DNA from: a virus
Lineage: Duplodnaviria > Caudoviricetes
Reading direction: 5' to 3' (one strand)
DNA length: 64,000 bases
IMG/VR virus record: IMGVR_UViG_3300025387_000009
The position numbers and the translations under genes are program-made. A model generated the notes under the pieces. The model worked only from the letters and a program-made list of their open reading frames with translations. It did no database searches and had not been told where the DNA came from. Below, one piece after another: positions 990 to 54,274 of this stretch. Every line of letters begins with the position of its first letter. Position 1 is the first letter of the stretch.

Positions 990-1769
990 TTAATTCCCAA
1001 AAATTATAACCGATACGTTTGATACGTCATAAGTTTCAAGAGGCGAAGTTCTATCAACTTGTATCTGGCAATATGTTGGTTGTTGTGCATTAACTGTTAC
1101 TGTTGCTATACCCGAAGGATCATTAGCATTACCAATAACTGCATAATAAGCATCATTCATTGTGAAATTGAAATTAATTTGATACACGCCTGGTTTGTTT
1201 AATCTTACTACCCCTAAAACACCATGAGATGAGCGGACACCCGATAGAGAATTACTATTAGTAGAATCGTAATTAACAGCTTTGGTTCCATCGAAATTTA
1301 CCCATATCTTTGAAAGTCTTTGCTGTGCACCTTGATAAGATGAACTATTTAATAAATTGGAATACTGAATAGTATTTGTGGCAATACTGTTATTTGTAAT
1401 ACTATTATTCGCTATTTGAGAAGACGTAATAGTATTTGGTTGTATCATTGACGAAGTAACGAAATTGGTTCCCGAAACCTGTAATGTTAAAACGTGTGAA
1501 TTTTTATTAATATCAATACCATTAGACCCCTTAAGAGTATTAAAATTAAGACCACTATTATCAGGAGTTACACCACTATAAAAAGGATATCCACCACCTA
1601 GACTATTAACACCTGTAATACCTTGGAATGAATTTTGAAATACACTACCATCAACTTTAAATGATGTCGGTATGTTTCCTACATTTTTAACTTTTATAAA
1701 AGTATCACCAGTTTGTATTAAACTCGTATCTTCTGGTAAATCTGTTATTCTTATTCCTGAAAGTGCCAT
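990..1769 (-). CDS. Tail-fibre-type virion protein with WVNFDG C-terminal domain
   Basis: 259 aa, Ser/Thr/Asn-rich, SKIWVNFDG motif typical of phage fibre C-termini; TAAGTA late promoter upstream. Confidence 0.6.
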   Translation of the reverse strand: MALSGIRITDLPEDTSLIQTGDTFIKVKNVGNIPTSFKVDGSVFQNSFQGITGVNSLGGGYPFYSGVTPDNSGLNFNTLKGSNGIDINKNSHVLTLQVSGTNFVTSSMIQPNTITSSQIANNSITNNSIATNTIQYSNLLNSSSYQGAQQRLSKIWVNFDGTKAVNYDSTNSNSLSGVRSSHGVLGVVRLNKPGVYQINFNFTMNDAYYAVIGNANDPSGIATVTVNAQQPTYCQIQVDRTSPLETYDVSNVSVIIFGN

Positions 1770-17500: not shown

Positions 17501-17749
17501 TATATAAAACGAAAAATATGAAATTTATGAATTTTTCAAAATCTTCGCCCTTGGGCGAAATTGTTTGAAAGATTTCATTTTACCCATTCTTTATATAAAA
17601 AATAAAAAAAAACCTTGACAAAGTATTTTACCCCTATGTGTCAAGATAAAAATAATCCTTGACACTTGGCATATGGGTCTGGTGTCAAGCACAAAGATTT
17701 TTGAAATTGTTCTTGAATGTTTGGGGAAAGATTGTATGGTAGCTCAACT

Positions 17750-19729
17750 ATGAAACTACTAGACACACCAAATCAAATCGAACAGATCGGAAACATCACG
17801 GGCACTTCGTCCTTCAAGATGAAGTCCTCTCGTAAAGCCTTCCAGATCCTCTCTGACCTTTACTCTGACAAGCCTCTTGCCATCGTCAGAGAGCTTGGTT
17901 GCAACGCCAATGATTCTATGGTTGCCTCTGGCAAGGTAGGTCAACCTTTCCACATTCACCTTCCCAACTCTCTTGAGCCTTGGATCACCATTCAGGATTT
18001 CGGAACAGGTATCTCGCACCAGAATATCTACGACATCTACTCCACTTACTTTGAAAGCACCAAGACCAATACCAATGAGCAGATCGGTTGCCTTGGTCTA
18101 GGTAGCAAGTCTCCCTTCTGTTATACGGACAACTTCTCTGTCACCTCCATCCATGATGGTGTCAAGAGAATCTACAATGCCTACTTCGCTCAAGATGGCA
18201 ACCCGACTATTGCCCTGATGAGTCAGGAGAACACCAAGGAAGAAAATGGTGTGGCAGTCCAGATCCCTGTCAAGGAGAAAGATTTCTGTGACTTCATCAA
18301 GGCAGTCCAGAAGGCATTTCGATTCTTCGATGTCAAGCCAACTACCTCTGGTGGGGTGTGCCATTGGTCAGAGGAGAAGCCTACCTTCTCTGGTGAGGAT
18401 TGGATGTTCATGGATTCCTCTAATCAATGGGAGGCATTTGCCATCATGGGAGGAGTCACCTATCCTATCGACCACTACAAGGTTGCCGACAAGTATAACA
18501 ACATCGTTCGCAAAGGTGTGGTTCTGAAGTTCGCTATGGGAGAACTCGACTTTGCTCCCTCTCGTGAACACCTGTCCTATGATGATGCCACTATCAAGGC
18601 AATCAATGACAAGCTGGAAAAAGTCTTGACAGAGATCAAGACCAAGGCAAAAGAGCAGATAGAAAATAAGGATAACATCCTTGACTCCATCCATGCTTTG
18701 CTCTCCTACACCGAGAGGTTCTCCTACTACGGGTCAAGCAATTTTGAACTCAAGAATGTCCAGTTCAAAGGTAAGGACATCACCGAGCCTTACAAGGTTG
18801 TCAAGGATATTCTCAAGACATCTGTGCAGTCCTTCACTCGCTACTCTTACAGGAAGCAGGTCAGCACCAGTTCATCCTTCTCCTTCGACAAGAAGTTCAC
18901 ATGGTATTACGATGATGGATGCAAGAATCCTATCGCTCGTGTCAAGACTCTTGTTCGTGAGACTAATGACACTTATGCCATCCTCTTCACTCAAGAGCAG
19001 AGGGATGACATGATGGATGCAGGATTCCCTGATAACTTCCTCCCTGCCTCCTCCCTGCCTTCCCCTACTGCCAAGAGGAAGCTCTCTGGTGGCACTATCG
19101 TAGTCAAGGCTAAAGAGGACATCACCTGCTATCAGATTGGTCACCCCTACAATGTCTCTTGGGAGTCAAGGACAATCGAACCGACTGAAACAAATCTTCC
19201 CAAGTATTATATCCTGAAGGGGAAGAATTGGGAGTTGAATGTCAAGCTCAATCATCTTCGCATCATCAGCGACAAGGATCGCCTTCGCTCCTATTGTCAA
19301 GCCTTTAATATCTCGCTCAATGATATTGTGCTTGCCAATGACAAGGAGGCAAAGAAGCTCAAGGCAAGGGGTGTCAAGGATTTTGTTGAGGAGTTCAACA
19401 AGAATCACGACCTATCTTGGGTTGACATGAGTGAAGTGGACATCCTCCAATCCTACTCGACTCACAGGTTGCATGACATCGTGAATCGTCAAGAGTTTTC
19501 TGATCTCGCCAACGACAATCCTATCAAGGAGATGCTTGTCAAGCTCCAAAGTTTCAAGCAGAAGTATAGCAAGATCACCGAAATCCTTGGCTACATGGAT
19601 AACAGGGACAGCAATAAAGTTTTCAAGATGGAAGATAAAGTTCTTGACTTCCTCCTCTCCTCTCTGCTAGGAGAGTGGGGTGAGGATCAGAAGATGTATC
19701 TGCTCCTTGCAAAGAAACTGGAAAAATAG
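17750..19729 (+). CDS. rIIA: RIIA protein (N-terminal GHKL/HATPase domain)
   Basis: LYSDKPLAIVRELGCNANDS, IQDFGTG, GCLGLGSKSPF; directly upstream of rIIB. Confidence 0.9.
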   Translation: MKLLDTPNQIEQIGNITGTSSFKMKSSRKAFQILSDLYSDKPLAIVRELGCNANDSMVASGKVGQPFHIHLPNSLEPWITIQDFGTGISHQNIYDIYSTYFESTKTNTNEQIGCLGLGSKSPFCYTDNFSVTSIHDGVKRIYNAYFAQDGNPTIALMSQENTKEENGVAVQIPVKEKDFCDFIKAVQKAFRFFDVKPTTSGGVCHWSEEKPTFSGEDWMFMDSSNQWEAFAIMGGVTYPIDHYKVADKYNNIVRKGVVLKFAMGELDFAPSREHLSYDDATIKAINDKLEKVLTEIKTKAKEQIENKDNILDSIHALLSYTERFSYYGSSNFELKNVQFKGKDITEPYKVVKDILKTSVQSFTRYSYRKQVSTSSSFSFDKKFTWYYDDGCKNPIARVKTLVRETNDTYAILFTQEQRDDMMDAGFPDNFLPASSLPSPTAKRKLSGGTIVVKAKEDITCYQIGHPYNVSWESRTIEPTETNLPKYYILKGKNWELNVKLNHLRIISDKDRLRSYCQAFNISLNDIVLANDKEAKKLKARGVKDFVEEFNKNHDLSWVDMSEVDILQSYSTHRLHDIVNRQEFSDLANDNPIKEMLVKLQSFKQKYSKITEILGYMDNRDSNKVFKMEDKVLDFLLSSLLGEWGEDQKMYLLLAKKLEK

Positions 19730-31097: not shown

Positions 31098-31724
31098 TTA
31101 AGGTATAAAGAAATATTCAGAATCTAAATCATAAGTTTTCCCAATCTCAGGGGAAATAGTTTGAGGAAATCTTCTGAATACATGACCCATATAAGTTTTG
31201 TGGTAATACTTTTTAGTTTCCGTGGAGCTAGAGGTTATTGAACGGTTTGCTACCTTGTAAACGCTTGTAACATTTGGGTAGTCTTCTAAGAGGTCATTTA
31301 CACCGTTATAGGTTTTTAACAATATACCATCTTTTGTAAACTTTCCTAGGGTTCCTTTAAATGAAACGTGTTTATCTTTCCCTTGTATTATTAATCCTGT
31401 ATCAATGGCATGCTTTACGTTTTGCTTTGCTGTAACCCATTCTAGGTTCTCTAATCTATAATCGTTTTTATCTCCATTTATATGGTTTATCATGGGATAG
31501 TTGTTTGGGTTTGGAATAAAGTATAGAGCTAAAAGTCTATGAATATAGTAAGTGGTGTATCTTCCTTTTATCTTTAAGGTAACGAGAGGATAGCGTTTTG
31601 TCTTTTTGACTTTCAGTATTCTGGGTGATTTAAAACAAAAGCTTTTAAATCTACCTTTATTGCTTACTTGGTATTTGTTATTTGTGTCTTCTATTGTTTT
31701 CCAGATTTCTTCTTTATTTTCCAT
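31098..31724 (-). CDS. NUMOD4-HNH homing endonuclease
   Basis: EEIWKTI..YQVSNKGRFKS; HRLLALYFI..INHINGDKNDYRLENLEWVT. Confidence 0.9.
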   Translation of the reverse strand: MENKEEIWKTIEDTNNKYQVSNKGRFKSFCFKSPRILKVKKTKRYPLVTLKIKGRYTTYYIHRLLALYFIPNPNNYPMINHINGDKNDYRLENLEWVTAKQNVKHAIDTGLIIQGKDKHVSFKGTLGKFTKDGILLKTYNGVNDLLEDYPNVTSVYKVANRSITSSSTETKKYYHKTYMGHVFRRFPQTISPEIGKTYDLDSEYFFIP

Positions 31725-36689: not shown

Positions 36690-36815
36690 ATGGCTGGCAA
36701 AGGATCTAAACCTCGTCCAACGGATATGAAGAAGTTTGTACAAAACTTCCCAAAGCCTTCTGGTAAAATCGAAGGGTTTGTAAAAACAAAAGGAAAAATT
36801 ACGAAAAAGTATTGA
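36690..36815 (+). CDS. Small basic phage protein
   Basis: MAGKGSKPRP motif. Confidence 0.55.
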   Translation: MAGKGSKPRPTDMKKFVQNFPKPSGKIEGFVKTKGKITKKY

Positions 36816-36858
36816 CCTATTTGAAAATTTGATGTATTATTAATACATAATCAAATAT

Positions 36859-36934
36859 GGCTGCGTAGTCCAACGGCAGAGACAAGCGACTTAAAATCGC
36901 TCAAGTGTGAGTTCGAATCTCACCGCAGCTACCA
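36859..36934 (+). tRNA. trnL: tRNA-Leu(UAA), short variable loop
   Basis: AGCGA-CTTAAAA-TCGCT, 5-nt variable region, A73, CCA. Confidence 0.88.
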
Positions 36935-37141: not shown

Positions 37142-37236
37142 GGTGGGTTAGTGTAATTGGAAGCACGATATAGTTTATACCTATAACTTCCCTAGATGAG
37201 GGATTAGCATGGGTTCGATTCCCATACCCACTTCCA
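37142..37236 (+). tRNA. Atypical tRNA with UAU anticodon, long variable arm, U73
   Basis: GGTGGGT/ACCCACT acceptor, TATAG-TTTATAC-CTATA arm, 23-nt V region, GGTTCGATTCC, CCA. Confidence 0.75.
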
Positions 37237-37391: not shown

Positions 37392-38105
37392 TTATTTCGT
37401 AAAGAAGTTTTTAAACTTCTCCAAAGACAATTCTTTGTCTTCCATATCATTATTAAAATCAAAAAGTTTTTCGTTTGCCCCTGAATTTCTTAATTTTTTA
37501 AAAACCAAATTGCCAACAGAATATTCTCCATCGTGTTTTAAGCCTTCTTTTCGTAATGCCTTGATGGTATTTTTCAACTTTTTAAAATCGTAATATGGTG
37601 CTTGGTATCTAATAAGCCAATCTATCTTTTTTTCAAAATAATCCGAAAGTTGCAATACTAATGGGTCGTTTAAATTTCTTGTATTTGGATTTGGCTTTTT
37701 TATCCATTTTTGATTATATAGATCGTAAACAGGTTTATCTTTCCAGAATTGCTGTTGCTCCGCACCCTCTTCATTAATATTGATTTCAACCTTGTAACCT
37801 TTAATAAAAATATTATGATTCTTATTGAAATAATCTTTCTTCAAATCAAAATAATCATCGGTGCTTTTATCGGCATGAGGTTCGTTAATGTCTACTGTTA
37901 AATGGACATCTATATCACTTGTCGGTGTCCATTTATAAGACGCTAGAGATCCTACTAGATATATGTTTTTAACTGTTACTGGCGTGATGAAGTCCTCTAA
38001 AAATCTTTTTGAGATTTGTAAAAGCTTTTCTCTCACTGAGGGAACAACAGTTCCATCCTTTTGCCAAATTTTTTCGTTTAATCCTTCCATAATTGTTGAC
38101 ACCAT
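37392..38105 (-). CDS. Pol-beta superfamily nucleotidyltransferase
   Basis: LVGSLASYKW..SDIDVHL; GEYSVGNLVFKKLR; TAAGTA upstream. Confidence 0.85.
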   Translation of the reverse strand: MVSTIMEGLNEKIWQKDGTVVPSVREKLLQISKRFLEDFITPVTVKNIYLVGSLASYKWTPTSDIDVHLTVDINEPHADKSTDDYFDLKKDYFNKNHNIFIKGYKVEININEEGAEQQQFWKDKPVYDLYNQKWIKKPNPNTRNLNDPLVLQLSDYFEKKIDWLIRYQAPYYDFKKLKNTIKALRKEGLKHDGEYSVGNLVFKKLRNSGANEKLFDFNNDMEDKELSLEKFKNFFTK

Positions 38106-38132
38106 ATAGTGGTTGGTGTACCATATATACTT

Positions 38133-38297
38133 ATGGCAAAAAATAAAAAAGAAACCCAAAATATTACAGAAGCTGATCTTATCAAGGAATTGCAATATCT
38201 AGTAAAAGAGGGATTTGTAGTATATAACCCTGTCGATGAAACTTATCGGATGAAAACCGAAGAGGAGCTTGAGGCAGAAATTAAAAATGTTCGTTAA
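38133..38297 (+). CDS. Small hypothetical protein
   Basis: ATG 38133. Confidence 0.55.
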   Translation: MAKNKKETQNITEADLIKELQYLVKEGFVVYNPVDETYRMKTEEELEAEIKNVR

Positions 38298-38628: not shown

Positions 38629-39114
38629 GTGACCATCGAAAATACAGGTATTTTTAGCAAAAGAATTGTTGCTTTTGATTTTCATGGAACACTCGTGGAA
38701 AGACATGAACATCATAAACCTTATAGAGTTGAAAATTCAAAAGCCGTTCATGCCAATAGACCTGTACTTGAAATTCTGAAACGATGTTTAAAATTAGGAA
38801 TTAAAACTTATATAATTTCCGCTGAAAATATTACAGGTGTTGACGAAGAGGGAATAGATAACAACGAAAGAATTTTACATCATTATGGTATAGATATTCC
38901 TAAATCAGATATTTTTTGTACCAATTTTGCTGCAAAAAATGCATGGTATGATGATTTAAAAGTTGAATATGTTATCGATGATGAAATTGGAAATATTCTA
39001 CTTGCTCGACAGATGGGTATAAATGGATTACTAGTTGATTATAAAGATCATCCAGTTGCAAGTTTGTTTACGAGAATAAGATTAAATGGAAAAGTTTTAA
39101 ATGGTGAGTTATAA
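38629..39114 (+). CDS. HAD-superfamily phosphatase-like protein
   Basis: VAFDFHGTL, IISA, YVIDDE. Confidence 0.65.
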   Translation: MTIENTGIFSKRIVAFDFHGTLVERHEHHKPYRVENSKAVHANRPVLEILKRCLKLGIKTYIISAENITGVDEEGIDNNERILHHYGIDIPKSDIFCTNFAAKNAWYDDLKVEYVIDDEIGNILLARQMGINGLLVDYKDHPVASLFTRIRLNGKVLNGEL

Positions 39115-41553: not shown

Positions 41554-42495
41554 ATGTTTACTTTTGTTATTGGTTTGGTAGCATTAATTGTTGCTGGCTG
41601 TGCAGCATTCTTTTCAGTTCAGGGTTTAGCTTCATTATATGCAGCTAGATTTATTGCCGTCTGTGTGATGGCAGGAGGATTAGAAGTCGGTAAACTAGTT
41701 GCCGCATCATTCCTTCATCGTTATTGGAAAACAACCGGATGGTTACTTAAAACTTATTTAACTCTTGCTGTTATTATTTTAATGGGCATAACTTCTCTTG
41801 GTATTTTTGGTTTCTTAACCGCTGCTTATCAGCAAAGTCACGTTAAAGTAGAACTCACGGATGTAAAACAGGAAGCATTAAATTCAAAGAAAGAATTTTT
41901 AAACATTGAAATTAAACAGCTTAATGATAGAATCAATACTTTAAATGAAGCAAGAAAAGCACAAGAAGCCAGACTCCCTAATTTATCTAGACGATCCGCT
42001 GCCCCCATTTACGAAGACATCAAACGATCATCTGAAGAAATTACAGAAACAAGAAATAGAGTGGCACAACTTACCACTGACCTCTTCAAAACATCCTCTG
42101 AGTCAATTCAAGAAAAGATTGAAGGTTCAAAAGAAGTTGACATTGGGACTCTCAAATATGTGGCAAAGGCGTTTGGAGTTGATATGGATACTATTGTTAA
42201 GTGGTTTACTTTGGGTATCGTTTTGGTATTTGATCCTCTTGCAGTGGCATTGGTTTTAGCATACAACTCATTAATAGAAAAAAAATCTGAACCCGTCGAA
42301 TTCGACGGGTTTAAAAAAGAATTAACTAAAGCGGAAAATTCTGAAAATTCACTTTTAGTTAATTCAAATGAATACATTAAAGAAGAAAATTCTGAAAATT
42401 CACCTTTAATGAATTCTAATTCCCCTGAAAACGAGGGAATTAAGAATAGTGGTATTCGCAAAAATTTAAATAACGCAATTAATTACAGAGTATGA
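41554..42495 (+). CDS. Multi-TM plus coiled-coil membrane protein (DUF4407-like)
   Basis: LEVGKLVAASFL..ITSLGIFGFLT..VFDPLAVALVLA. Confidence 0.7.
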   Translation: MFTFVIGLVALIVAGCAAFFSVQGLASLYAARFIAVCVMAGGLEVGKLVAASFLHRYWKTTGWLLKTYLTLAVIILMGITSLGIFGFLTAAYQQSHVKVELTDVKQEALNSKKEFLNIEIKQLNDRINTLNEARKAQEARLPNLSRRSAAPIYEDIKRSSEEITETRNRVAQLTTDLFKTSSESIQEKIEGSKEVDIGTLKYVAKAFGVDMDTIVKWFTLGIVLVFDPLAVALVLAYNSLIEKKSEPVEFDGFKKELTKAENSENSLLVNSNEYIKEENSENSPLMNSNSPENEGIKNSGIRKNLNNAINYRV

Positions 42496-42696: not shown

Positions 42697-43803
42697 ATGT
42701 CAAATTCATACGATAAGCAACAGCTAATAGAACAAGCTAGAGAGCTTCAGACTCAAGGTAAAACAAACACCGAAATTTCAAAACTTCTGGATGTTCCTAG
42801 GAAGACTATCTATAACTGGATTGGTAATAGTTTGAATGTTACATCTCGCTCTTACATTGAGGAGGAGCCAATTATTAACGAAGACGGTGAATATATTGGT
42901 AATGCACTAAAGGTTTTTAAGCAGAATGATGCAGATGGTGATGAGGTTTTGCAGTTCTTGGAGCAATTGACTCCCATTCATTATGATCCACCAAAGAGAT
43001 CACAGGTTAGGCAAGAAGCTGCTAAATCAGCTGTTGTAATTGGTGATCTGCATTTTGGCGTTGAGCATCAACCCACAATTGAAATCTTCTTTAAAGTTGT
43101 TGAAGAAGTAAAACCAGAGAAAATCATTCTCAATGGTGACACTCTTGATATGCTTTCAATTAGCACCTATTCAAATGATGTTCGTCACAACTATTCGCTT
43201 GCTGATGAACTAAAGAAGTATCATGCATTCTTGAAGACGTTGCATGATATTACCGAAGCATGGGATTGTGAAATCTTGGAAACTAATGCAAACCATTCTG
43301 GTAATAGTCAGGAAGGTAGATGGTGGAGATATCTCAGTAAGCAAATTGGTCAGGCGGCATCGTTGCCTAGAATTCAAGAATTGCTTTCTTATGATAATGT
43401 ATTTTACCCAAACGAATCTTGGTGTAGAATCAAGTTGGTTGATGAAGTAGTTCTCCCAACAAACTTGATCGTTAAGCACGGTACAGCAGTTAGAAAAAAT
43501 GGTGGTCAGTCAGCAAGAGCAGAGTACGAAAAAGTTTTTGCTTCAACTATTACTAATCACGTTCATCGTTTTGGTGCTACCTCGCAGAGACATCCTGCTG
43601 TCGGTAACAGAAAAGCAGTTACATATTACAATTATGAGAATGCTTGCGCCTGTGATCTAAACCCTTCATATGTAAAAGATCCGAATTGGCAGAATGGATT
43701 TTCAATTGTTAATTATGGTGATGAAGTAGTGGGTGTTGATTTTGTTGCTGTCCACGAAGATATTGCTTGCGTTAATACCCTTAGAAAGACTATTAGAGCT
43801 TAA
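42697..43803 (+). CDS. HTH plus calcineurin-like metallophosphoesterase
   Basis: EISKLLDVPRKTIYNW; GDLHFG, NGDTLD, ANH, KHG, HVHR. Confidence 0.85.
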   Translation: MSNSYDKQQLIEQARELQTQGKTNTEISKLLDVPRKTIYNWIGNSLNVTSRSYIEEEPIINEDGEYIGNALKVFKQNDADGDEVLQFLEQLTPIHYDPPKRSQVRQEAAKSAVVIGDLHFGVEHQPTIEIFFKVVEEVKPEKIILNGDTLDMLSISTYSNDVRHNYSLADELKKYHAFLKTLHDITEAWDCEILETNANHSGNSQEGRWWRYLSKQIGQAASLPRIQELLSYDNVFYPNESWCRIKLVDEVVLPTNLIVKHGTAVRKNGGQSARAEYEKVFASTITNHVHRFGATSQRHPAVGNRKAVTYYNYENACACDLNPSYVKDPNWQNGFSIVNYGDEVVGVDFVAVHEDIACVNTLRKTIRA

Positions 43804-44471
43804 ATTTCCTTCAAAATAACCATCCCATCACTATCTATAATGATATAATGAGATGGAGAGTCACAGAAAGATCCAGTATTATAATAGCTTTTGTTGGTTT
43901 TTATGCAGTGATATTCTTCTGCGTAATGGACATGACCACCAAAAATTGCATCGTATTGTGTATTGTGAATATATTCCAATGCTTTATACTTGATTTTATC
44001 TTTAACTTCTAGGAAAGTTTTACTGCTTCTTTTTAACCATATAGCCAATGGCTTATGTAGTTTTTGAAAAAAATAATAGATTTTTTCAGCGATACTTGTC
44101 AATAAACCATAACTGGCAATAAAGGTATCAAATATGTCTAAGTGCAAGAATAAGAAGCGTTTATCACTAATTTGCATTTCATATTTTTCAACGAATTCTA
44201 TACCCAATATTCCAGCAAGAGCTTCGGAATTTCTATCGTGATTTCCTCTTATTAGGATAACTTCTTTTTTCTTTGAAATTTTTCTGATAGTTTCCAAAAC
44301 CTTCCAATGTTTCTTTTTATATCTTTCAAAATAGTTATTATCCAATAAATCACCATTAATGATTAACTTATCGTATTTCTCTTCGGTTAAAACCTTTAAG
44401 ATTGCATCGGTGCGACTGACGGGTGAACCAAGATGAATGTCCGAAATTACTAGGGTTTTGCCTTGTATCAT
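43800..44471 (-). CDS. Metallophosphoesterase, LpxH-like
   Basis: SDIHLG, INGDLLD, RGNHD, GGHVH. Confidence 0.85.
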   Translation of the reverse strand: MIQGKTLVISDIHLGSPVSRTDAILKVLTEEKYDKLIINGDLLDNNYFERYKKKHWKVLETIRKISKKKEVILIRGNHDRNSEALAGILGIEFVEKYEMQISDKRFLFLHLDIFDTFIASYGLLTSIAEKIYYFFQKLHKPLAIWLKRSSKTFLEVKDKIKYKALEYIHNTQYDAIFGGHVHYAEEYHCIKTNKSYYNTGSFCDSPSHYIIIDSDGMVILKEI

Positions 44472-47257: not shown

Positions 47258-47465
47258 GGTTGGGGGGTAGCAAATCACCTAACTAGGAAACGAATCTTTG
47301 CTGATTGGTAAGTTGGGATGACTTTCTGAATGGTAACTAGCGAAGCTACAGGAGCTATGATGTTACTGATTAGAACAACATTAGCTATACGGATAGGGCA
47401 GCGTTCCACGCAGCCTTGCCCGTTGAAGAAGGAACAAAGTGCGCAACAAAATCCTTCAAACACCA
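47258..47465 (+). ncRNA. Candidate ~210-nt structured ncRNA ending in ACCA
   Basis: TTTACA-16-TAAGAT promoter, five or more hairpins, paired ends, T run after. Confidence 0.55.
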
Positions 47466-47518
47466 CGTTTTTTTTAAATGGTTTATTGAAATGTATCGTC
47501 ATAACTATAAGTATTTTT

Positions 47519-48001
47519 ATGGATAATAAATGTATATTTTGTAGTAGACAAATTTTAAATAAGGGTTCATTAACCGCTCATCAAAAAACATGCAAACAAA
47601 ATCCTAATAAAATTAAATTTTATCATTCACCAAAAGCAGGTGGTCAAAGAGGATTAGTTGGTTGGAGTAAAGGTAAAATATTTGAAAAAGAAAATCTCGA
47701 AAGGAATTTACAATTGATAGAATCCGGTGAATATAAAAAATTTGGAGAAACTCACATAAGAAGAAGAATTAAAAAATATTTGATTCATAAGCATGGTCAT
47801 AAATGCATGATATGTGGTTTAACTGAATGGAGAGGTGTACAAATACCTTTAGTTGCTGATCATATAGATGGTAATTCTGAAAATAATGATCTCTCAAATT
47901 TTAGAATAATTTGCAATAATTGTGATTCCATACTGCCAACATTCAAAGCTAAAAATACAGGTAAAGGAAGAAAGGGAAGATATTTAAAAAAATATTCTTG
48001 A
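47519..48001 (+). CDS. HNH endonuclease with N-terminal C2H-type finger
   Basis: CIFC..HQKTC; CMICG..ADHIDGNSENN..NFRIICNNCD; TAAGTA upstream. Confidence 0.88.
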   Translation: MDNKCIFCSRQILNKGSLTAHQKTCKQNPNKIKFYHSPKAGGQRGLVGWSKGKIFEKENLERNLQLIESGEYKKFGETHIRRRIKKYLIHKHGHKCMICGLTEWRGVQIPLVADHIDGNSENNDLSNFRIICNNCDSILPTFKAKNTGKGRKGRYLKKYS

Positions 48002-48034: not shown

Positions 48035-48123
48035 GGGAGCGTGACTGAGTGATTTAAAGTATCCGATTACTAATCGGAAGAACCCAAAAGGTTCCGTGGG
48101 TTTGAATCCCACCGCTCCTTCCA
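48035..48123 (+). tRNA. trnS: tRNA-Ser(ACU)
   Basis: TCCGA-TTACTAA-TCGGA, long arm GAACC/GGTTC, U73, CCA. Confidence 0.8.
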
Positions 48124-48128
48124 AATAT

Positions 48129-48220
48129 GGCAGGTTGGTAGAGTCCGGTTTATTGCACCGCACTTGAAATGCGGAGAACCTTTATCGGTTCCGTGGGTTC
48201 GAATCCCACACCTGCTTCCA
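48129..48220 (+). tRNA. trnS: tRNA-Ser(UGA)
   Basis: CCGCA-CTTGAAA-TGCGG, long arm, U73, CCA. Confidence 0.92.
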
Positions 48221-48226
48221 TTTTTT

Positions 48227-48298
48227 GCCTGATGAGACAGCAAGAGAAGTCCACGGTCTGCAAAACCGTTATGTTCGGAGCGTTACCGAAATCAGGCT
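48227..48298 (+). tRNA. trnC: tRNA-Cys(GCA), T-loop AGCGTTA, CCA not encoded
   Basis: GCCTGAT/ATCAGGC, ACGGT-CTGCAAA-ACCGT, U73. Confidence 0.78.
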
Positions 48299-48342
48299 CA
48301 TTTTTTATGATTTTTAGACCCTTGCCTAGTAAGTATATGTAT

Positions 48343-48936
48343 ATGAATAATTTTTACTATCTATACAAAATAACCAATTTAATTAATAAAAAATATTATA
48401 TAGGTGTCCATAGTACTAATAATTTAGATGATGGGTATATGGGATCTGGAAAATTGATATTAAAAGCTATAGAAAAATACGGAAATAAAAATTTTAAAAA
48501 AGAAATATTAGAGTGGTTTAATACAGAAGAAGAAATGTACAAAAAAGAAATTGAAATTGTTAATGAAGAATTCGTAAATGATAAAACAAACTACAATGTC
48601 AAGCTTGGTGGACCAGCTAATTTTTATTATGTAAATAAAAACAAATTAAACCATAAAAAAAATCAACACTTAATACATGCTAACAAATTAAAATCTGATC
48701 CAGAATATAGAAAAAGATTTGTTGAAAAAATGAAAAATGCCTTATCAAAGGAAAAACGATTAGAGTATAGCAAAAGGATGAAAGAGAATAATTGTAATAG
48801 AAATAGATTTTGGATATCAAACGATTTTTATAAAAAATCTAAAATGGTAACACAAGAACAGTTTGATGTTCTGTTAAATCAAAATTGGTATAAGGGTGTA
48901 AAATATAGAAAGAATAGATATTCAAATCCTACTTGA
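48343..48936 (+). CDS. GIY-YIG (Seg-like) homing endonuclease
   Basis: YLYKITNLINKKYYIG..YMGSG..KYG..NFKKEILE; TAAGTA 7 nt upstream. Confidence 0.9.
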   Translation: MNNFYYLYKITNLINKKYYIGVHSTNNLDDGYMGSGKLILKAIEKYGNKNFKKEILEWFNTEEEMYKKEIEIVNEEFVNDKTNYNVKLGGPANFYYVNKNKLNHKKNQHLIHANKLKSDPEYRKRFVEKMKNALSKEKRLEYSKRMKENNCNRNRFWISNDFYKKSKMVTQEQFDVLLNQNWYKGVKYRKNRYSNPT

Positions 48937-53824: not shown

Positions 53825-54274
53825 GGGGGTGTACTGGTTTCGACTTAATTGTTGAATGCTATGTATGCAAGCAGTAGTTGATCGCTTGGCTACTATAAAA
53901 GGCGATTAAAACATAAACGCAAAGGCTATAACCAATGCAGTTAATGTAGTCAAGTCATTCGTGACAAATGTTGCAGAGTCTCTCTTCTCCCAAGAAGAAG
54001 ATTACTGTCTCATGGCAGCATAAACACCAAGAGTAGATCCTATTAAGCTCTTGTCGAATCACAATAGGTTGAAGTAGTTCTTGTGATACTCGTAAAATAA
54101 GTGCAAGCGGTGGTATGATGGTCGTTATTCACTCATACAGGTAGGTCTCTAAACATAGATAGGTTGGCATTGCCTTGTTACCTTTAGACAACGAAAGTAC
54201 GAAGTTTGCCAAAGCTTGTGTAGATTATATAGTACCCAATATTAAGGACGGGAGTTCAACTCTCCCCACCTCCA
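53825..54274 (+). ncRNA. ssrA: tmRNA, 450 nt, tag ORF 53919..54023
   Basis: 5' GGGGGTGTACTGGTTTCGAC; 3' GGACGGGAGTTCAACTCTCCCCACCTCCA; G3-U70; tag ends YCLMAA. Confidence 0.92.

What the first reader, a model, noticed from the sequence alone, without database searches (positions are those of the whole stretch)
37142..37236. UAU-anticodon tRNA built like a serine tRNA: possible missense or decoy tRNA
Seen: anticodon UAU (reads AUA), a long V-arm that can fold as 7 bp with a 2-nt bulge and one unpaired base each side, U73 as in both Ser tRNAs here, one extra base before the anticodon stem, and encoded CCA. Known: IleRS uses the anticodon and A73; SerRS ignores the anticodon and binds the long arm; bacteria normally read AUA with lysidine-CAU. 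Inference: either an unusual Ile tRNA for ATA-rich late genes, or a Ser-charged tRNA that mistranslates AUA, or a nuclease decoy. ATA still encodes conserved Ile in the GIY-YIG motifs, which argues against full recoding.
Basis: partly seen in the sequence, partly recalled or inferred. Interest (0 to 1): 0.8.

Follow-up and report, generated by a model that had tools for sequence, protein, structure and literature searches.

The report
Phage AUA tRNA with second anticodon-like arm
This is a real, conserved phage tRNA for the rare isoleucine codon AUA whose long extra arm is not serine-like: it is a hairpin that displays GAU, the ordinary isoleucine anticodon, as in a widespread tRNA family I could not find described in print.

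Summary
Positions 37142-37236 (+) encode a 95-nt tRNA with anticodon UAU, a long extra arm, U73, one extra base after G26 and an encoded CCA. Related phages keep it, with compensatory changes in every stem.

The "serine-like" reading does not hold.
- The arm is a 4-bp stem with the 7-nt loop UAGAUGA, followed by 5 unpaired bases. Ser tRNAs, including this phage's own two, have 1 unpaired base on each side.
- The D arm is class-I type.
- A Ser covariance model gives 37.7 bits. A model of the long-armed UAU family, built without this clade, gives 71.3 bits.

In IMG/VR, 21 of 22 long tRNA(UAU) genes carry AGAU in the arm, against 5 of 285 Ser/Leu/Tyr tRNAs. All 108 arms picked only by that loop sit beside a UAU anticodon. 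The loop matches the tRNA-Ile(GAU) anticodon loop at 6 of 7 positions in the commonest variants and 5 of 7 here; position 2 is A in nearly all arms where the real loops have U or C at 33.

ATA evolves as isoleucine in this phage, so there is no recoding.

Best reading: an Ile-accepting AUA decoder that needs no lysidine. The arm may help IleRS recognise it; that is unproven. This clade has U73 where the family has A73, which keeps some doubt.

This scan has reported the same family on other DNA. I found no paper on it.

The parts
37142..37236 (+). Whole tRNA gene, 95 nt, anticodon UAU, CCA encoded
   Evidence: ARAGORN; Rfam RF00005 48.3 bits; family model R3 71.3 bits; conserved in L001 and L278
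37142..37148 (+). Acceptor stem 5' strand, GGUGGGU. It pairs with 37226-37232 (ACCCACU), giving G1.U72
   Evidence: Five of seven pairs show changes on both sides across relatives, 100% paired
37151..37166 (+). D arm: 4-bp stem GUGU/GCAC and 8-nt loop AAUUGGAA with G18G19. This is class-I type, not the 3-bp stem and long loop of Ser tRNAs
   Evidence: The D arm is the same as in A73 family members L250, L246 and L050
37167..37168 (+). G26 plus one extra A between the D stem and the anticodon stem
   Evidence: Rfam alignment shows the insertion. Relatives have 2-3 bases here
37169..37185 (+). Anticodon arm: stem UAUAG/CUAUA, loop UUUAUAC, anticodon UAU at 37176-37178, with U33 and A37
   Evidence: The stem is entirely different but still paired in L282-type relatives (ACAGA/UCUGU)
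37189..37203 (+). Extra arm: stem UCCC/GGGA around the 7-nt loop UAGAUGA, with GAU at 37195-37197
   Evidence: Compensatory changes: C-G to A-U in L283, U-A to G-C in L295. Models R1 and R3 align it to the family's cgc-CAGAUaA-gcg
37204..37208 (+). 5-nt spacer UUAGC between the extra arm and the T stem. The family has 5-7 nt here; Ser tRNAs have 0-2
37209..37225 (+). T arm: AUGGG / UUCGAUU / CCCAU, a 5-bp stem, so the branch is 7/5
   Evidence: A49-U65 to G-C and U50-A64 to A-U in L001 and L278
37233..37236 (+). Discriminator U73 and encoded CCA
   Evidence: U73 is shared by the whole clade. The family otherwise has A73 in 110 of 114 members
36812..36840 (+). Promoter-like site TTGACC-17-TATTAT upstream of tRNA-Leu. 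It may drive tRNA-Leu, the 62-aa ORF and this tRNA as one unit
   Evidence: a consensus match only; 1 site found against 2.4 expected in shuffles. The flank is conserved in L001
36859..36934 (+). Neighbouring tRNA-Leu(UAA), 76 nt, with no long variable arm and A73
   Evidence: Conserved with compensatory changes in L001
36947..37135 (+). 62-aa ORF between the two tRNAs, ending 6 nt before this tRNA
   Evidence: Conserved in L001 and L278. No meaningful family match

Best explanation
The gene encodes a functional elongator tRNA that reads AUA. It belongs to a widespread family of phage, plasmid and bacterial tRNA(UAU) genes. These have an ordinary 7/5 class-I body plus an extra hairpin between the anticodon arm and the T arm. 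The 7-nt loop of that hairpin (consensus C-A-G-A-U-N-A; here U-A-G-A-U-G-A) copies the anticodon loop of the major tRNA-Ile(GAU), except that position 2 is A where the real loops have U or C. Most likely the host IleRS charges it with isoleucine. It then decodes the phage's ATA codons without needing lysidine (TilS). ATA makes up 18% of Ile codons overall and 52-62% in the HNH, GIY-YIG and some accessory ORFs. Shown here: the gene is real, it is under structural selection, it belongs to the family, it is unlike Ser tRNAs, and ATA behaves as Ile. Inferred: that it is charged with Ile. Speculative (about 30%): that the GAU arm is what lets IleRS accept a U34 tRNA.
For: 1. Real and selected: Rfam 48.3 bits; compensatory pairs in all five helices across the clade, 88.9% of cells paired against 74.8% in shuffles, 0 of 500 shuffles as high.
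2. Family membership: model R3, built from 27 A73 members and none of this clade, scores it 71.3 bits. That is the best of all the window's tRNAs; the next is 54.4.
3. Not Ser-like: the Ser model R2 gives 37.7 bits, against 78.6 and 76.7 for the window's own Ser tRNAs. Unpaired flanks are (3,5), against (1,1) in Ser.
4. The arm is specific to UAU. AGAU lies in the arm of 21 of 22 long tRNA(UAU) genes found without asking for it, against 4/143 Ser, 1/97 Leu and 0/45 Tyr. All 108 distinct viral arms selected only by loop plus T arm stand next to a YUUAUAN anticodon loop.
5. The arm loops (CAGAUAA, CAGAUUA, UAGAUGA) resemble real tRNA-Ile(GAU) loops in the same loci (CUGAUAA 32 of 62, UUGAUAA 18 of 62).
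6. In large tRNA arrays the usual set is one Ile(GAU), one long UAU and 0-2 CAU genes, so the long UAU gene fills the AUA slot.
7. ATA behaves as Ile. Against an 80%-identical relative, 89 ATA codons align to ATA 39, ATT 13, ATC 9 and to no Ser codon among the twelve commonest partners. In 38-70% identical homologues of the phosphoesterase, ATA columns are I 39%, L 13%, V 9%, M 6%, and S is not among the eight commonest residues.
8. No IleRS-type or SerRS-type synthetase gene was found in the 163-kb relative, so charging is by host enzymes.
Against: U73 replaces the family's A73 (110 of 114 members). A73 is listed among the strong IleRS determinants in E. coli (Giege et al. 2023, PMC9976931). 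The phage's own Ser tRNAs share G1.U72 and U73, and Mukai et al. 2017 treat G73 or U73 plus a long arm as Ser-compatible. In two other phages (L285, L286) the Ile(GAU) gene has A73 while the long UAU gene has U73, so U73 is not simply the host's Ile rule. Class I synthetases approach tRNA from the side away from the variable region (my own knowledge), so a variable-arm loop reaching IleRS's anticodon-binding domain needs an alternative fold that I could not test. An unmodified U34 would also read AUG.
Confidence: 0.6

Rival explanations
1. The tRNA is Ile-charged and reads AUA, but the GAU arm plays no part in IleRS recognition. It could be an evolutionary relic of a duplicated or inserted anticodon arm. 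It could instead serve another partner, such as a U34 or A37 modification enzyme, a shield against MetRS or anticodon nucleases, or a folding aid. This rival concerns only the mechanism of the arm and is nested within the best explanation.
For: Loop position 6 (the equivalent of 37) varies: U 74, A 39, G 5, C 5. Position 2 is A in 122 of 123 arms, unlike a real anticodon loop. The variable region normally faces away from class I synthetases (my own knowledge). Earlier follow-ups in this scan were later priced at 13-42% for the bold reading.
Against: G-A-U is invariant while the stems covary freely. C at position 1 and A at position 7 match C32 and A38 of real Ile loops. The arm is tied to UAU in 108 of 108 cases. 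A relic would have decayed across such diverged lineages.
Confidence: 0.3
2. Host SerRS charges the tRNA with serine, so it inserts Ser at AUA.
For: It has a long extra arm, and G1.U72, U73 and G2-C71 exactly as in the phage's two Ser tRNAs. Its U73 departs from the family's A73. Allo-tRNAs with UAU and Ser-like features exist (Mukai 2017).
Against: The Ser model gives 37.7 bits, below several class-I tRNAs of the window. It has a class-I D arm with U11-A24. The U73 clade keeps the GAU loop, which SerRS has no use for. ATA is 12.3 per 1000 codons and sits at conserved Ile positions. Six allo-tRNA(UAU) species tested by Mukai et al. were inactive.
Confidence: 0.1
3. The RNA is not used in translation. 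It acts as a decoy or sponge for a host tRNA-targeting nuclease or another tRNA-binding factor, or as a regulator.
For: Phage tRNAs are known to counter anticodon nucleases (my own knowledge). [quoted passage not shown] A nucleotidyltransferase gene, a PNKP-like HAD gene and phosphoesterase genes lie nearby.
Against: It has a canonical anticodon loop (U33, A37), an intact elbow (G18G19, UUCGA), an intact acceptor stem and CCA. It sits in the AUA slot of near-complete tRNA arrays. Selection acts on every helix, the acceptor included.
Confidence: 0.1
4. The tRNA is charged with another amino acid, for example leucine as in the nematode nev-tRNA-Ile(UAU).
For: Class-II-like UAU tRNAs charged with Leu exist in nematodes (Hamashima 2012, PMC3333845). 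Most family members have A73, which I recall as the main determinant for bacterial LeuRS.
Against: This clade has U73. ATA-to-Leu exchanges are no more frequent than ATT-to-Leu exchanges. The GAU loop points to Ile.
Confidence: 0.04

Closest known systems
Bacterial tRNA-Ile(UAU) ('tRNA-Ile3') of Mycoplasma mobile, Bifidobacterium, Neorickettsia and Lactobacillus plantarum (cited in PMC8450103, PMC13752280 and PMC10688831)
   Same: UAU anticodon. Reads AUA without lysidine. An ordinary 7/5 cloverleaf body.
   Different: As far as I know, those are class-I tRNAs with a short variable loop. This one carries a 15-nt hairpin that displays GAU, plus a 5-nt spacer, and has U73.
allo-tRNA(UAU) (Mukai et al. 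2017, NAR 45:2776, PMC5389517)
   Same: Long extra arm with a UAU anticodon. Found in metagenomes and phage or mobile contexts. Discriminator G73 or U73.
   Different: Allo-tRNAs have 8/4 or 9/3 acceptor/T branches and Ser-type features. Six UAU species tested were inactive. This tRNA is 7/5, with compensatory changes that prove a 5-bp T stem, and has a class-I D arm and a conserved GAU loop.
Nematode nev-tRNA-Ile(UAU) (Hamashima et al. 2012, PMC3333845; PMC4300185)
   Same: A class-II-looking tRNA whose anticodon UAU belongs to a class-I amino acid.
   Different: Eukaryotic, derived from tRNA-Leu, and charged with Leu in vitro. I know of no GAU loop motif in them.
Bacterial class II tRNA-Ser
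   Same: Total length, an extra helix, and in this phage the same G1.U72 and U73 acceptor end.
   Different: Junction geometry, D arm, covariance-model score and loop motif all differ.
The 'two anticodon-like arms' tRNA-Ile(UAU) family reported earlier by this scan on other genomes
   Same: Same architecture and the same loop motif. The family model scores this tRNA 71.3 bits.
   Different: This clade has U73 instead of A73 and the loop UAGAUGA instead of CAGAU(U/A)A.

Membership tests
Long-armed tRNA(UAU) family with a GAU-displaying extra arm (not found in print) | UAU anticodon in a canonical 7-nt loop with U33 and A37 | tested here: met
   Loop UUUAUAC. The family has YUUAUAN in 108 of 108 members.
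Long-armed tRNA(UAU) family with a GAU-displaying extra arm (not found in print) | Hairpin between the anticodon arm and the T arm, with a 7-nt loop N-A-G-A-U-N-A | tested here: met
   UCCC[UAGAUGA]GGGA. Aligned to the family consensus by models R1 and R3.
Long-armed tRNA(UAU) family with a GAU-displaying extra arm (not found in print) | 5-7 unpaired bases between the arm and the T stem | tested here: met
   UUAGC, 5 nt. The family has 5 (49 members), 6 (41) or 7 (32).
Long-armed tRNA(UAU) family with a GAU-displaying extra arm (not found in print) | Covariance-model score above all other tRNAs | tested here: met
   R3, built without this clade: 71.3 bits against at most 54.4 for the window's other tRNAs.
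Long-armed tRNA(UAU) family with a GAU-displaying extra arm (not found in print) | Discriminator A73 | tested here: not met
   U73 here and in the whole clade. A73 in 110 of 114 other members. A targeted scan found 17 viral loci matching a U73 version of the pattern; about 15 are family tRNAs, in several lineages.
Bacterial tRNA-Ser (class II) | Variable arm with about one unpaired base on each side, which sets its orientation | tested here: not met
The MFE and family-conserved fold give (3,5). Ser tRNAs give (1,1) in 83 of 121, including both Ser tRNAs of the window.
Bacterial tRNA-Ser (class II) | 3-bp D stem with an enlarged D loop, and C11-G24 | tested here: not met
   4-bp stem GUGU/GCAC, 8-nt loop, U11-A24.
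Bacterial tRNA-Ser (class II) | Overall sequence and structure profile | tested here: not met
   R2, built from 45 Ser tRNAs: 37.7 bits against 78.6 and 76.7 for the window's Ser tRNAs.
Bacterial tRNA-Ser (class II) | Discriminator G73 (U73 in this phage's own Ser tRNAs) | tested here: inconclusive
   U73 matches the phage's Ser tRNAs but not the general G73, which holds in 97 of 109.
Bacterial tRNA-Ser (class II) | Serylation by SerRS | not testable with these tools
   Needs a charging assay.
allo-tRNA (Mukai 2017) | 8/4 or 9/3 acceptor/T-stem branch | tested here: not met
   7-bp acceptor and 5-bp T stem. Pairs 49-65 and 50-64 change compensatorily. An eighth acceptor pair would be U.U.
tRNA-Ile (isoleucine acceptor) | E. 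coli IleRS identity set: A73, A35, U36, A37, A38, and G34 or L34 | tested here: inconclusive
   A35, U36 and A37 are present. Position 34 is U, position 38 is C and position 73 is U. Identity set as listed in PMC9976931.
tRNA-Ile (isoleucine acceptor) | The codon it reads is used as Ile in the genome | tested here: met
   ATA exchanges with ATT and ATC and with no Ser codon among the commonest partners. Ile or hydrophobic residues align to it in distant homologues.
tRNA-Ile (isoleucine acceptor) | Isoleucylation by IleRS | not testable with these tools
   Needs a charging assay.

The most novel reading that the evidence does not exclude
The extra arm is a portable identity module. By displaying a copy of the tRNA-Ile(GAU) anticodon loop outside the anticodon position (made unfit for the ribosome by A at position 2, where real loops have U or C at 33), it lets ordinary host IleRS charge a U34 tRNA. 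Phages and mobile elements would thereby gain a TilS-independent AUA decoder that works in many hosts. In this clade the module might even compensate for the loss of A73.
Probability: 0.3. Interest if true: 0.85.

Novelty: new variant of a known kind. Interest (0 to 1): 0.68.

Why it matters
AUA is the one sense codon that bacteria normally read only after an essential modification, lysidine made by TilS. Unmodified UAU tRNAs are considered rare exceptions.

A widespread, mobile tRNA design that reads AUA directly, and always carries a look-alike of the other isoleucine anticodon on a side arm, would matter in three ways.
- It would be a new architecture for tRNA specialists.
- It would be a possible first case of a synthetase identity element placed outside its normal position.
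- It would be a practical lead for orthogonal or host-independent AUA decoding.

It also shows that annotation pipelines and readers can mistake such genes for serine-type missense tRNAs. The U73 sub-clade found here offers a natural experiment on how much the discriminator matters once the arm is present.

Tried and rejected
- Recoding of ATA: rejected by codon-substitution tests against a close relative and against distant homologues.
- allo-tRNA 8/4 or 9/3 fold: rejected. The T stem is 5 bp with compensatory changes, and an eighth acceptor pair would be U.U.
- The GAU hairpin as the true anticodon arm, with the UAU hairpin as an insertion: unlikely for decoding. Its loop has A at position 2 where real loops have U or C at 33, and a variable base at the place of 37, while the UAU loop has U33 and A37. 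I could not exclude it as an alternative conformer.
- Near and distant BLAST against 50,697 phage genomes: no homologue of the whole tRNA, only T-arm matches.
- The search for related loci with the 723-aa structural protein: nothing.
- Distant relatives L279 and L280, reached through the phosphoesterase: no tRNA within 10 kb, and their records are not held for whole-record search.
- Phage-encoded IleRS or SerRS in the 163-kb relative: none found. That record is 73% complete.
- Sample of 400 further genomes from the class of the Microbulbifer genome, using a loop-plus-T-arm pattern: 11 other genomes matched. ARAGORN found no tRNA at the 10 sites I checked, and the slice for the eleventh (L303) missed the match. 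The family is therefore sporadic in bacteria.
- Host identification: not achieved. No whole genome is held.
- Neighbouring nucleotidyltransferase: only generic NTP_transf_2 and MntA-like similarity, and no PDB relative. No link to the tRNA could be shown.
- Literature: four full-text searches and nine papers read found no description of a 7/5 tRNA(UAU) with a GAU-bearing arm.

Full report
**1. The observation**

ARAGORN finds a 95-nt tRNA-Ile(tat) at exactly 37142-37236 (+), among 17 tRNAs and a tmRNA in the window. Rfam's tRNA model scores it 48.3 bits (E 3.7e-9, gathering score 29) and shows one inserted base after G26. The minimum-energy fold is a cloverleaf plus an extra hairpin.

Read from the sequence:
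- The acceptor stem is GGUGGGU/ACCCACU, so G1.U72.
- The discriminator is U73 and CCA is encoded.
- The D stem is 4 bp (GUGU/GCAC) with an 8-nt loop containing GG.
- G26 is followed by an extra A.
- The anticodon stem is UAUAG/CUAUA and the loop is UUUAUAC, with U33, UAU and A37.
- Next come ACU, then UCCC-UAGAUGA-GGGA, then UUAGC, then a normal T arm.

G1.U72 is also seen in the window's Leu, Glu and Val tRNAs, and U73 in Thr and Gly.

**2. Setting**

The window is part of a large AT-rich phage.
- It carries an rIIA-like gene at 17717-19729, virion proteins, and HNH and GIY-YIG ORFs.
- It has no close relative among 50,697 deposited phage genomes.
- No whole genome is held.
- A promoter-like site lies at 36812-36840. 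It precedes tRNA-Leu(UAA), a 62-aa ORF and this tRNA.

**3. The gene is under selection**

- IMG/VR contig L001 (163 kb, 76-85% identical around the gene) and Logan contig L278 carry the same tRNA. Two T-stem pairs are exchanged compensatorily, while the flanks diverge.
- A scan aimed at U73 variants found more distant members of the same clade: L282, L284, L288, L290, L291, L293, L295, L283 and L294.
- These keep the acceptor end, the D arm, the T arm and the arm loop.
- They have a completely different but still paired anticodon stem (ACAGA/UCUGU).
- They show compensatory changes in the extra arm: C-G to A-U in L283, and U-A to G-C in L295.
- They also show compensatory changes in the acceptor stem.
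- On an 11-sequence alignment, 88.9% of cells pair, against 74.8% in shuffles. Sixteen pairs change on both sides, and 0 of 500 shuffles reach that.
- The inner four pairs of the extra arm are supported.

**4. It belongs to a large family with a distinctive arm**

I scanned IMG/VR for a UAU loop, a long gap and a T arm, with no condition on the arm itself. This gave 22 long (90-95 nt) tRNA(UAU) genes in unrelated contigs.
- 21 of the 22 have AGAU in the extra arm, against 4/143 Ser, 1/97 Leu and 0/45 Tyr tRNAs from the same loci.

The converse scan asked only for the arm loop plus a T arm and put no condition on the anticodon.
- All 108 distinct sequences have a YUUAUAN loop just upstream: 93 called tat by ARAGORN, and 15 checked by eye.

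The arm has these features:
- a 3-5 bp stem that covaries freely (CGC/GCG, CAA/UUG, CCC/GGG, CUC/GAG, CAC/GUG, GGG/CCC);
- a 7-nt loop;
- 5-7 unpaired bases before the T stem.

In the unbiased set the loops are CAGAUAA (7), CAGAUUA (5), UAGAUGA (2) and single variants. One member lacks GAU. Real tRNA-Ile(GAU) anticodon loops in the same loci are CUGAUAA (32 of 62) and UUGAUAA (18 of 62). The commonest arm loops therefore copy the Ile anticodon loop at 6 of 7 positions, and the loop here at 5 of 7. The constant difference is position 2: A in nearly all arms, where the real loops have U or C at position 33.

The family also occurs in bacterial genomes. Some are single genes, in Microbulbifer, Marinobacter, Azospirillum and Nitratireductor. 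Others lie inside 15-30-gene tRNA arrays in MAGs of many phyla. It is sporadic there. In a sample of 400 further genomes from the class of the Microbulbifer genome, 11 other genomes matched the pattern. ARAGORN found no tRNA at the 10 sites I checked, and my slice missed the match in the eleventh, L303.

I noticed the GAU motif, before consulting earlier notes. Those notes show that this scan has already reported the same "two anticodon-like arms" family several times on other DNA, each time without finding a publication.

**5. Is it built like a serine tRNA? No**

- Junction geometry: Ser tRNAs have one unpaired base on each side of the variable stem (83 of 121, and both Ser tRNAs of the window). 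Leu tRNAs have (1,2) and Tyr tRNAs (1,3). The UAU family has (2-5, 5-6), and this tRNA (3,5).
- D arm: class-I type here. The window's Ser tRNAs have 3-bp stems and long loops.
- Models: a covariance model of 45 diverse Ser tRNAs scores this tRNA 37.7 bits. That is below several class-I tRNAs of the window, and the window's Ser tRNAs score 78.6 and 76.7. A model of 27 A73 family members, none from this clade, scores it 71.3 bits and the Ser tRNAs 40.4 and 36.7.
- allo-tRNA: it is not one, because the branch is 7/5, not 8/4 or 9/3.

**6. What does ATA mean in this phage?**

- Against the 80%-identical relative, 89 ATA codons align with ATA 39, ATT 13 and ATC 9. The rest are Lys, Val, Leu, Thr, Met and Ala codons. 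No Ser codon appears among the twelve commonest partners.
- In 38-70% identical homologues of the phosphoesterase at 43800-44471, three of the eight ATA columns are conserved Ile or Ile/Leu, and one is hydrophobic. Pooled, they are I 39%, L 13%, V 9% and M 6%, and Ser is not among the eight commonest residues.
- ATA is 17.7% of Ile codons (12.3 per 1000) and is unevenly spread. It is 1 of 44 in rIIA and 1 of 30 in a major virion protein, but 52-62% in the HNH and GIY-YIG ORFs and two other ORFs.

There is therefore no recoding. A tRNA that put Ser at AUA would damage the phage's own proteins.

**7. The unresolved point: U73**

The family has A73 in 110 of 114 members. A73 is listed among the strong Ile determinants in E. 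coli (PMC9976931).

This clade has U73. So do a few unrelated lineages (L281, L285, L286/L296, L289).

Its closest A73 sisters (L246, L250, L050) have almost the same body. In L285 and L286 the same phage has Ile(GAU) with A73 and the long UAU gene with U73, so U73 does not simply follow the host's Ile rule.

The clade nevertheless keeps GAU in the arm while other loop and stem positions change. This argues for the same function as in the rest of the family. Mukai et al. count U73 plus a long arm as Ser-compatible, so I keep about 10% on serylation.

**8. Mechanism**

- Shown: a selected, canonical-looking AUA-reading tRNA of a defined family.
- Inferred (about 60%): host IleRS charges it with Ile, and it supplies AUA decoding without TilS. 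In large arrays the usual set is one Ile(GAU), one long UAU and 0-2 CAU genes. No synthetase gene is seen in the 163-kb relative.
- Speculative (about 30%): the arm is an anticodon-loop mimic that recruits or satisfies IleRS. IleRS handles unmodified U34 poorly in yeast; a 40-fold effect is quoted in PMC11685878. The geometry is a problem for this idea, unless the two tandem hairpins can exchange places under the D stem. No available tool could test that.

**9. Comparison with what is known**

The nearest described things are:
- the class-I tRNA-Ile(UAU) of TilS-less bacteria and of L. plantarum;
- allo-tRNA(UAU), which is 8/4, Ser-like and inactive in tests;
- nematode nev-tRNA-Ile(UAU), which is Leu-charged.

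None has a GAU-bearing arm on a 7/5 class-I body. I found no paper describing it in four full-text searches and nine papers read. That search covers open-access text only.

**10. Verdict**

The serine, missense and decoy framing is mostly not supported. The "unusual Ile tRNA" alternative is supported.

The tRNA is a new (U73, UAGAUGA-loop) member of an apparently undescribed variant of tRNA-Ile. This scan has met that variant before on other DNA.

Noticed in passing
window 36859-36934: tRNA-Leu(UAA) is only 76 nt, with no long variable arm, and has A73. It is conserved with compensatory changes in L001. In the roughly 260 viral and bacterial loci fetched, 102 of 224 Leu tRNAs are shorter than 80 nt, so class-I-shaped Leu tRNAs seem common in phage tRNA arrays.
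   Followed up: partly
window 48035-48123 and 48129-48220: Both Ser tRNAs (ACU and UGA) have G1.U72 and U73 instead of the usual G73, which holds for 97 of 109 Ser tRNAs in my sample. The A34 anticodon ACU recurs in the related L282-type phages.
   Followed up: partly
L285 and L286 (IMG/VR contigs): The same phage encodes tRNA-Ile(GAU) with A73 and a long-armed tRNA(UAU) with U73, so the two Ile-type tRNAs differ at the discriminator within one genome.
   Followed up: no
window 31098-31724(-), 47330-48001, 48169-48936, 990-1769(-): ATA makes up 52-62% of Ile codons in these ORFs, two of which have HNH/NUMOD4 or GIY-YIG matches. It makes up only 0-6% in rIIA, rIIB-like and several structural genes.
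   Followed up: partly
window 43800-44471(-), codon 144: An ATA codon sits where 94 of 108 homologues have a conserved Arg. This looks like a single-base AGA-to-ATA change at a conserved site.
   Followed up: no
window 37392-38195(-), 38629-39114, 42697-43803, 43800-44471(-): A nucleotidyltransferase (NTP_transf_2, weak MntA-like match), a weak PNKP-type HAD phosphatase match and two metallophosphoesterases flank the tRNA pair. This could be an RNA end-processing or repair set, but nothing links them to the tRNA.
   Followed up: partly
window 41554-42495: The 313-aa ORF has a weak match (E 2.7e-4) to positions 696-787 of the AlaRS model TIGR00344, which is the C-terminal region.
   Followed up: no
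G001 (contig of L001) 135481-135577(-): A 97-nt RF00005 match (37.1 bits) that ARAGORN did not call, next to the Cys and Ser tRNAs. It may be another atypical long tRNA.
   Followed up: no
window 53825-54274: ARAGORN calls a phage-encoded tmRNA with the unusual tag VAESLFSQEEDYCLMAA.
   Followed up: no
L109, L114-L116, L122, L155 (Microbulbifer, Marinobacter, Azospirillum, Nitratireductor chromosomes): Family members occur as solitary, nearly identical 92-nt genes in distantly related Proteobacteria. None was confirmed in 400 other genomes sampled from one class, which suggests horizontal spread.
   Followed up: partly
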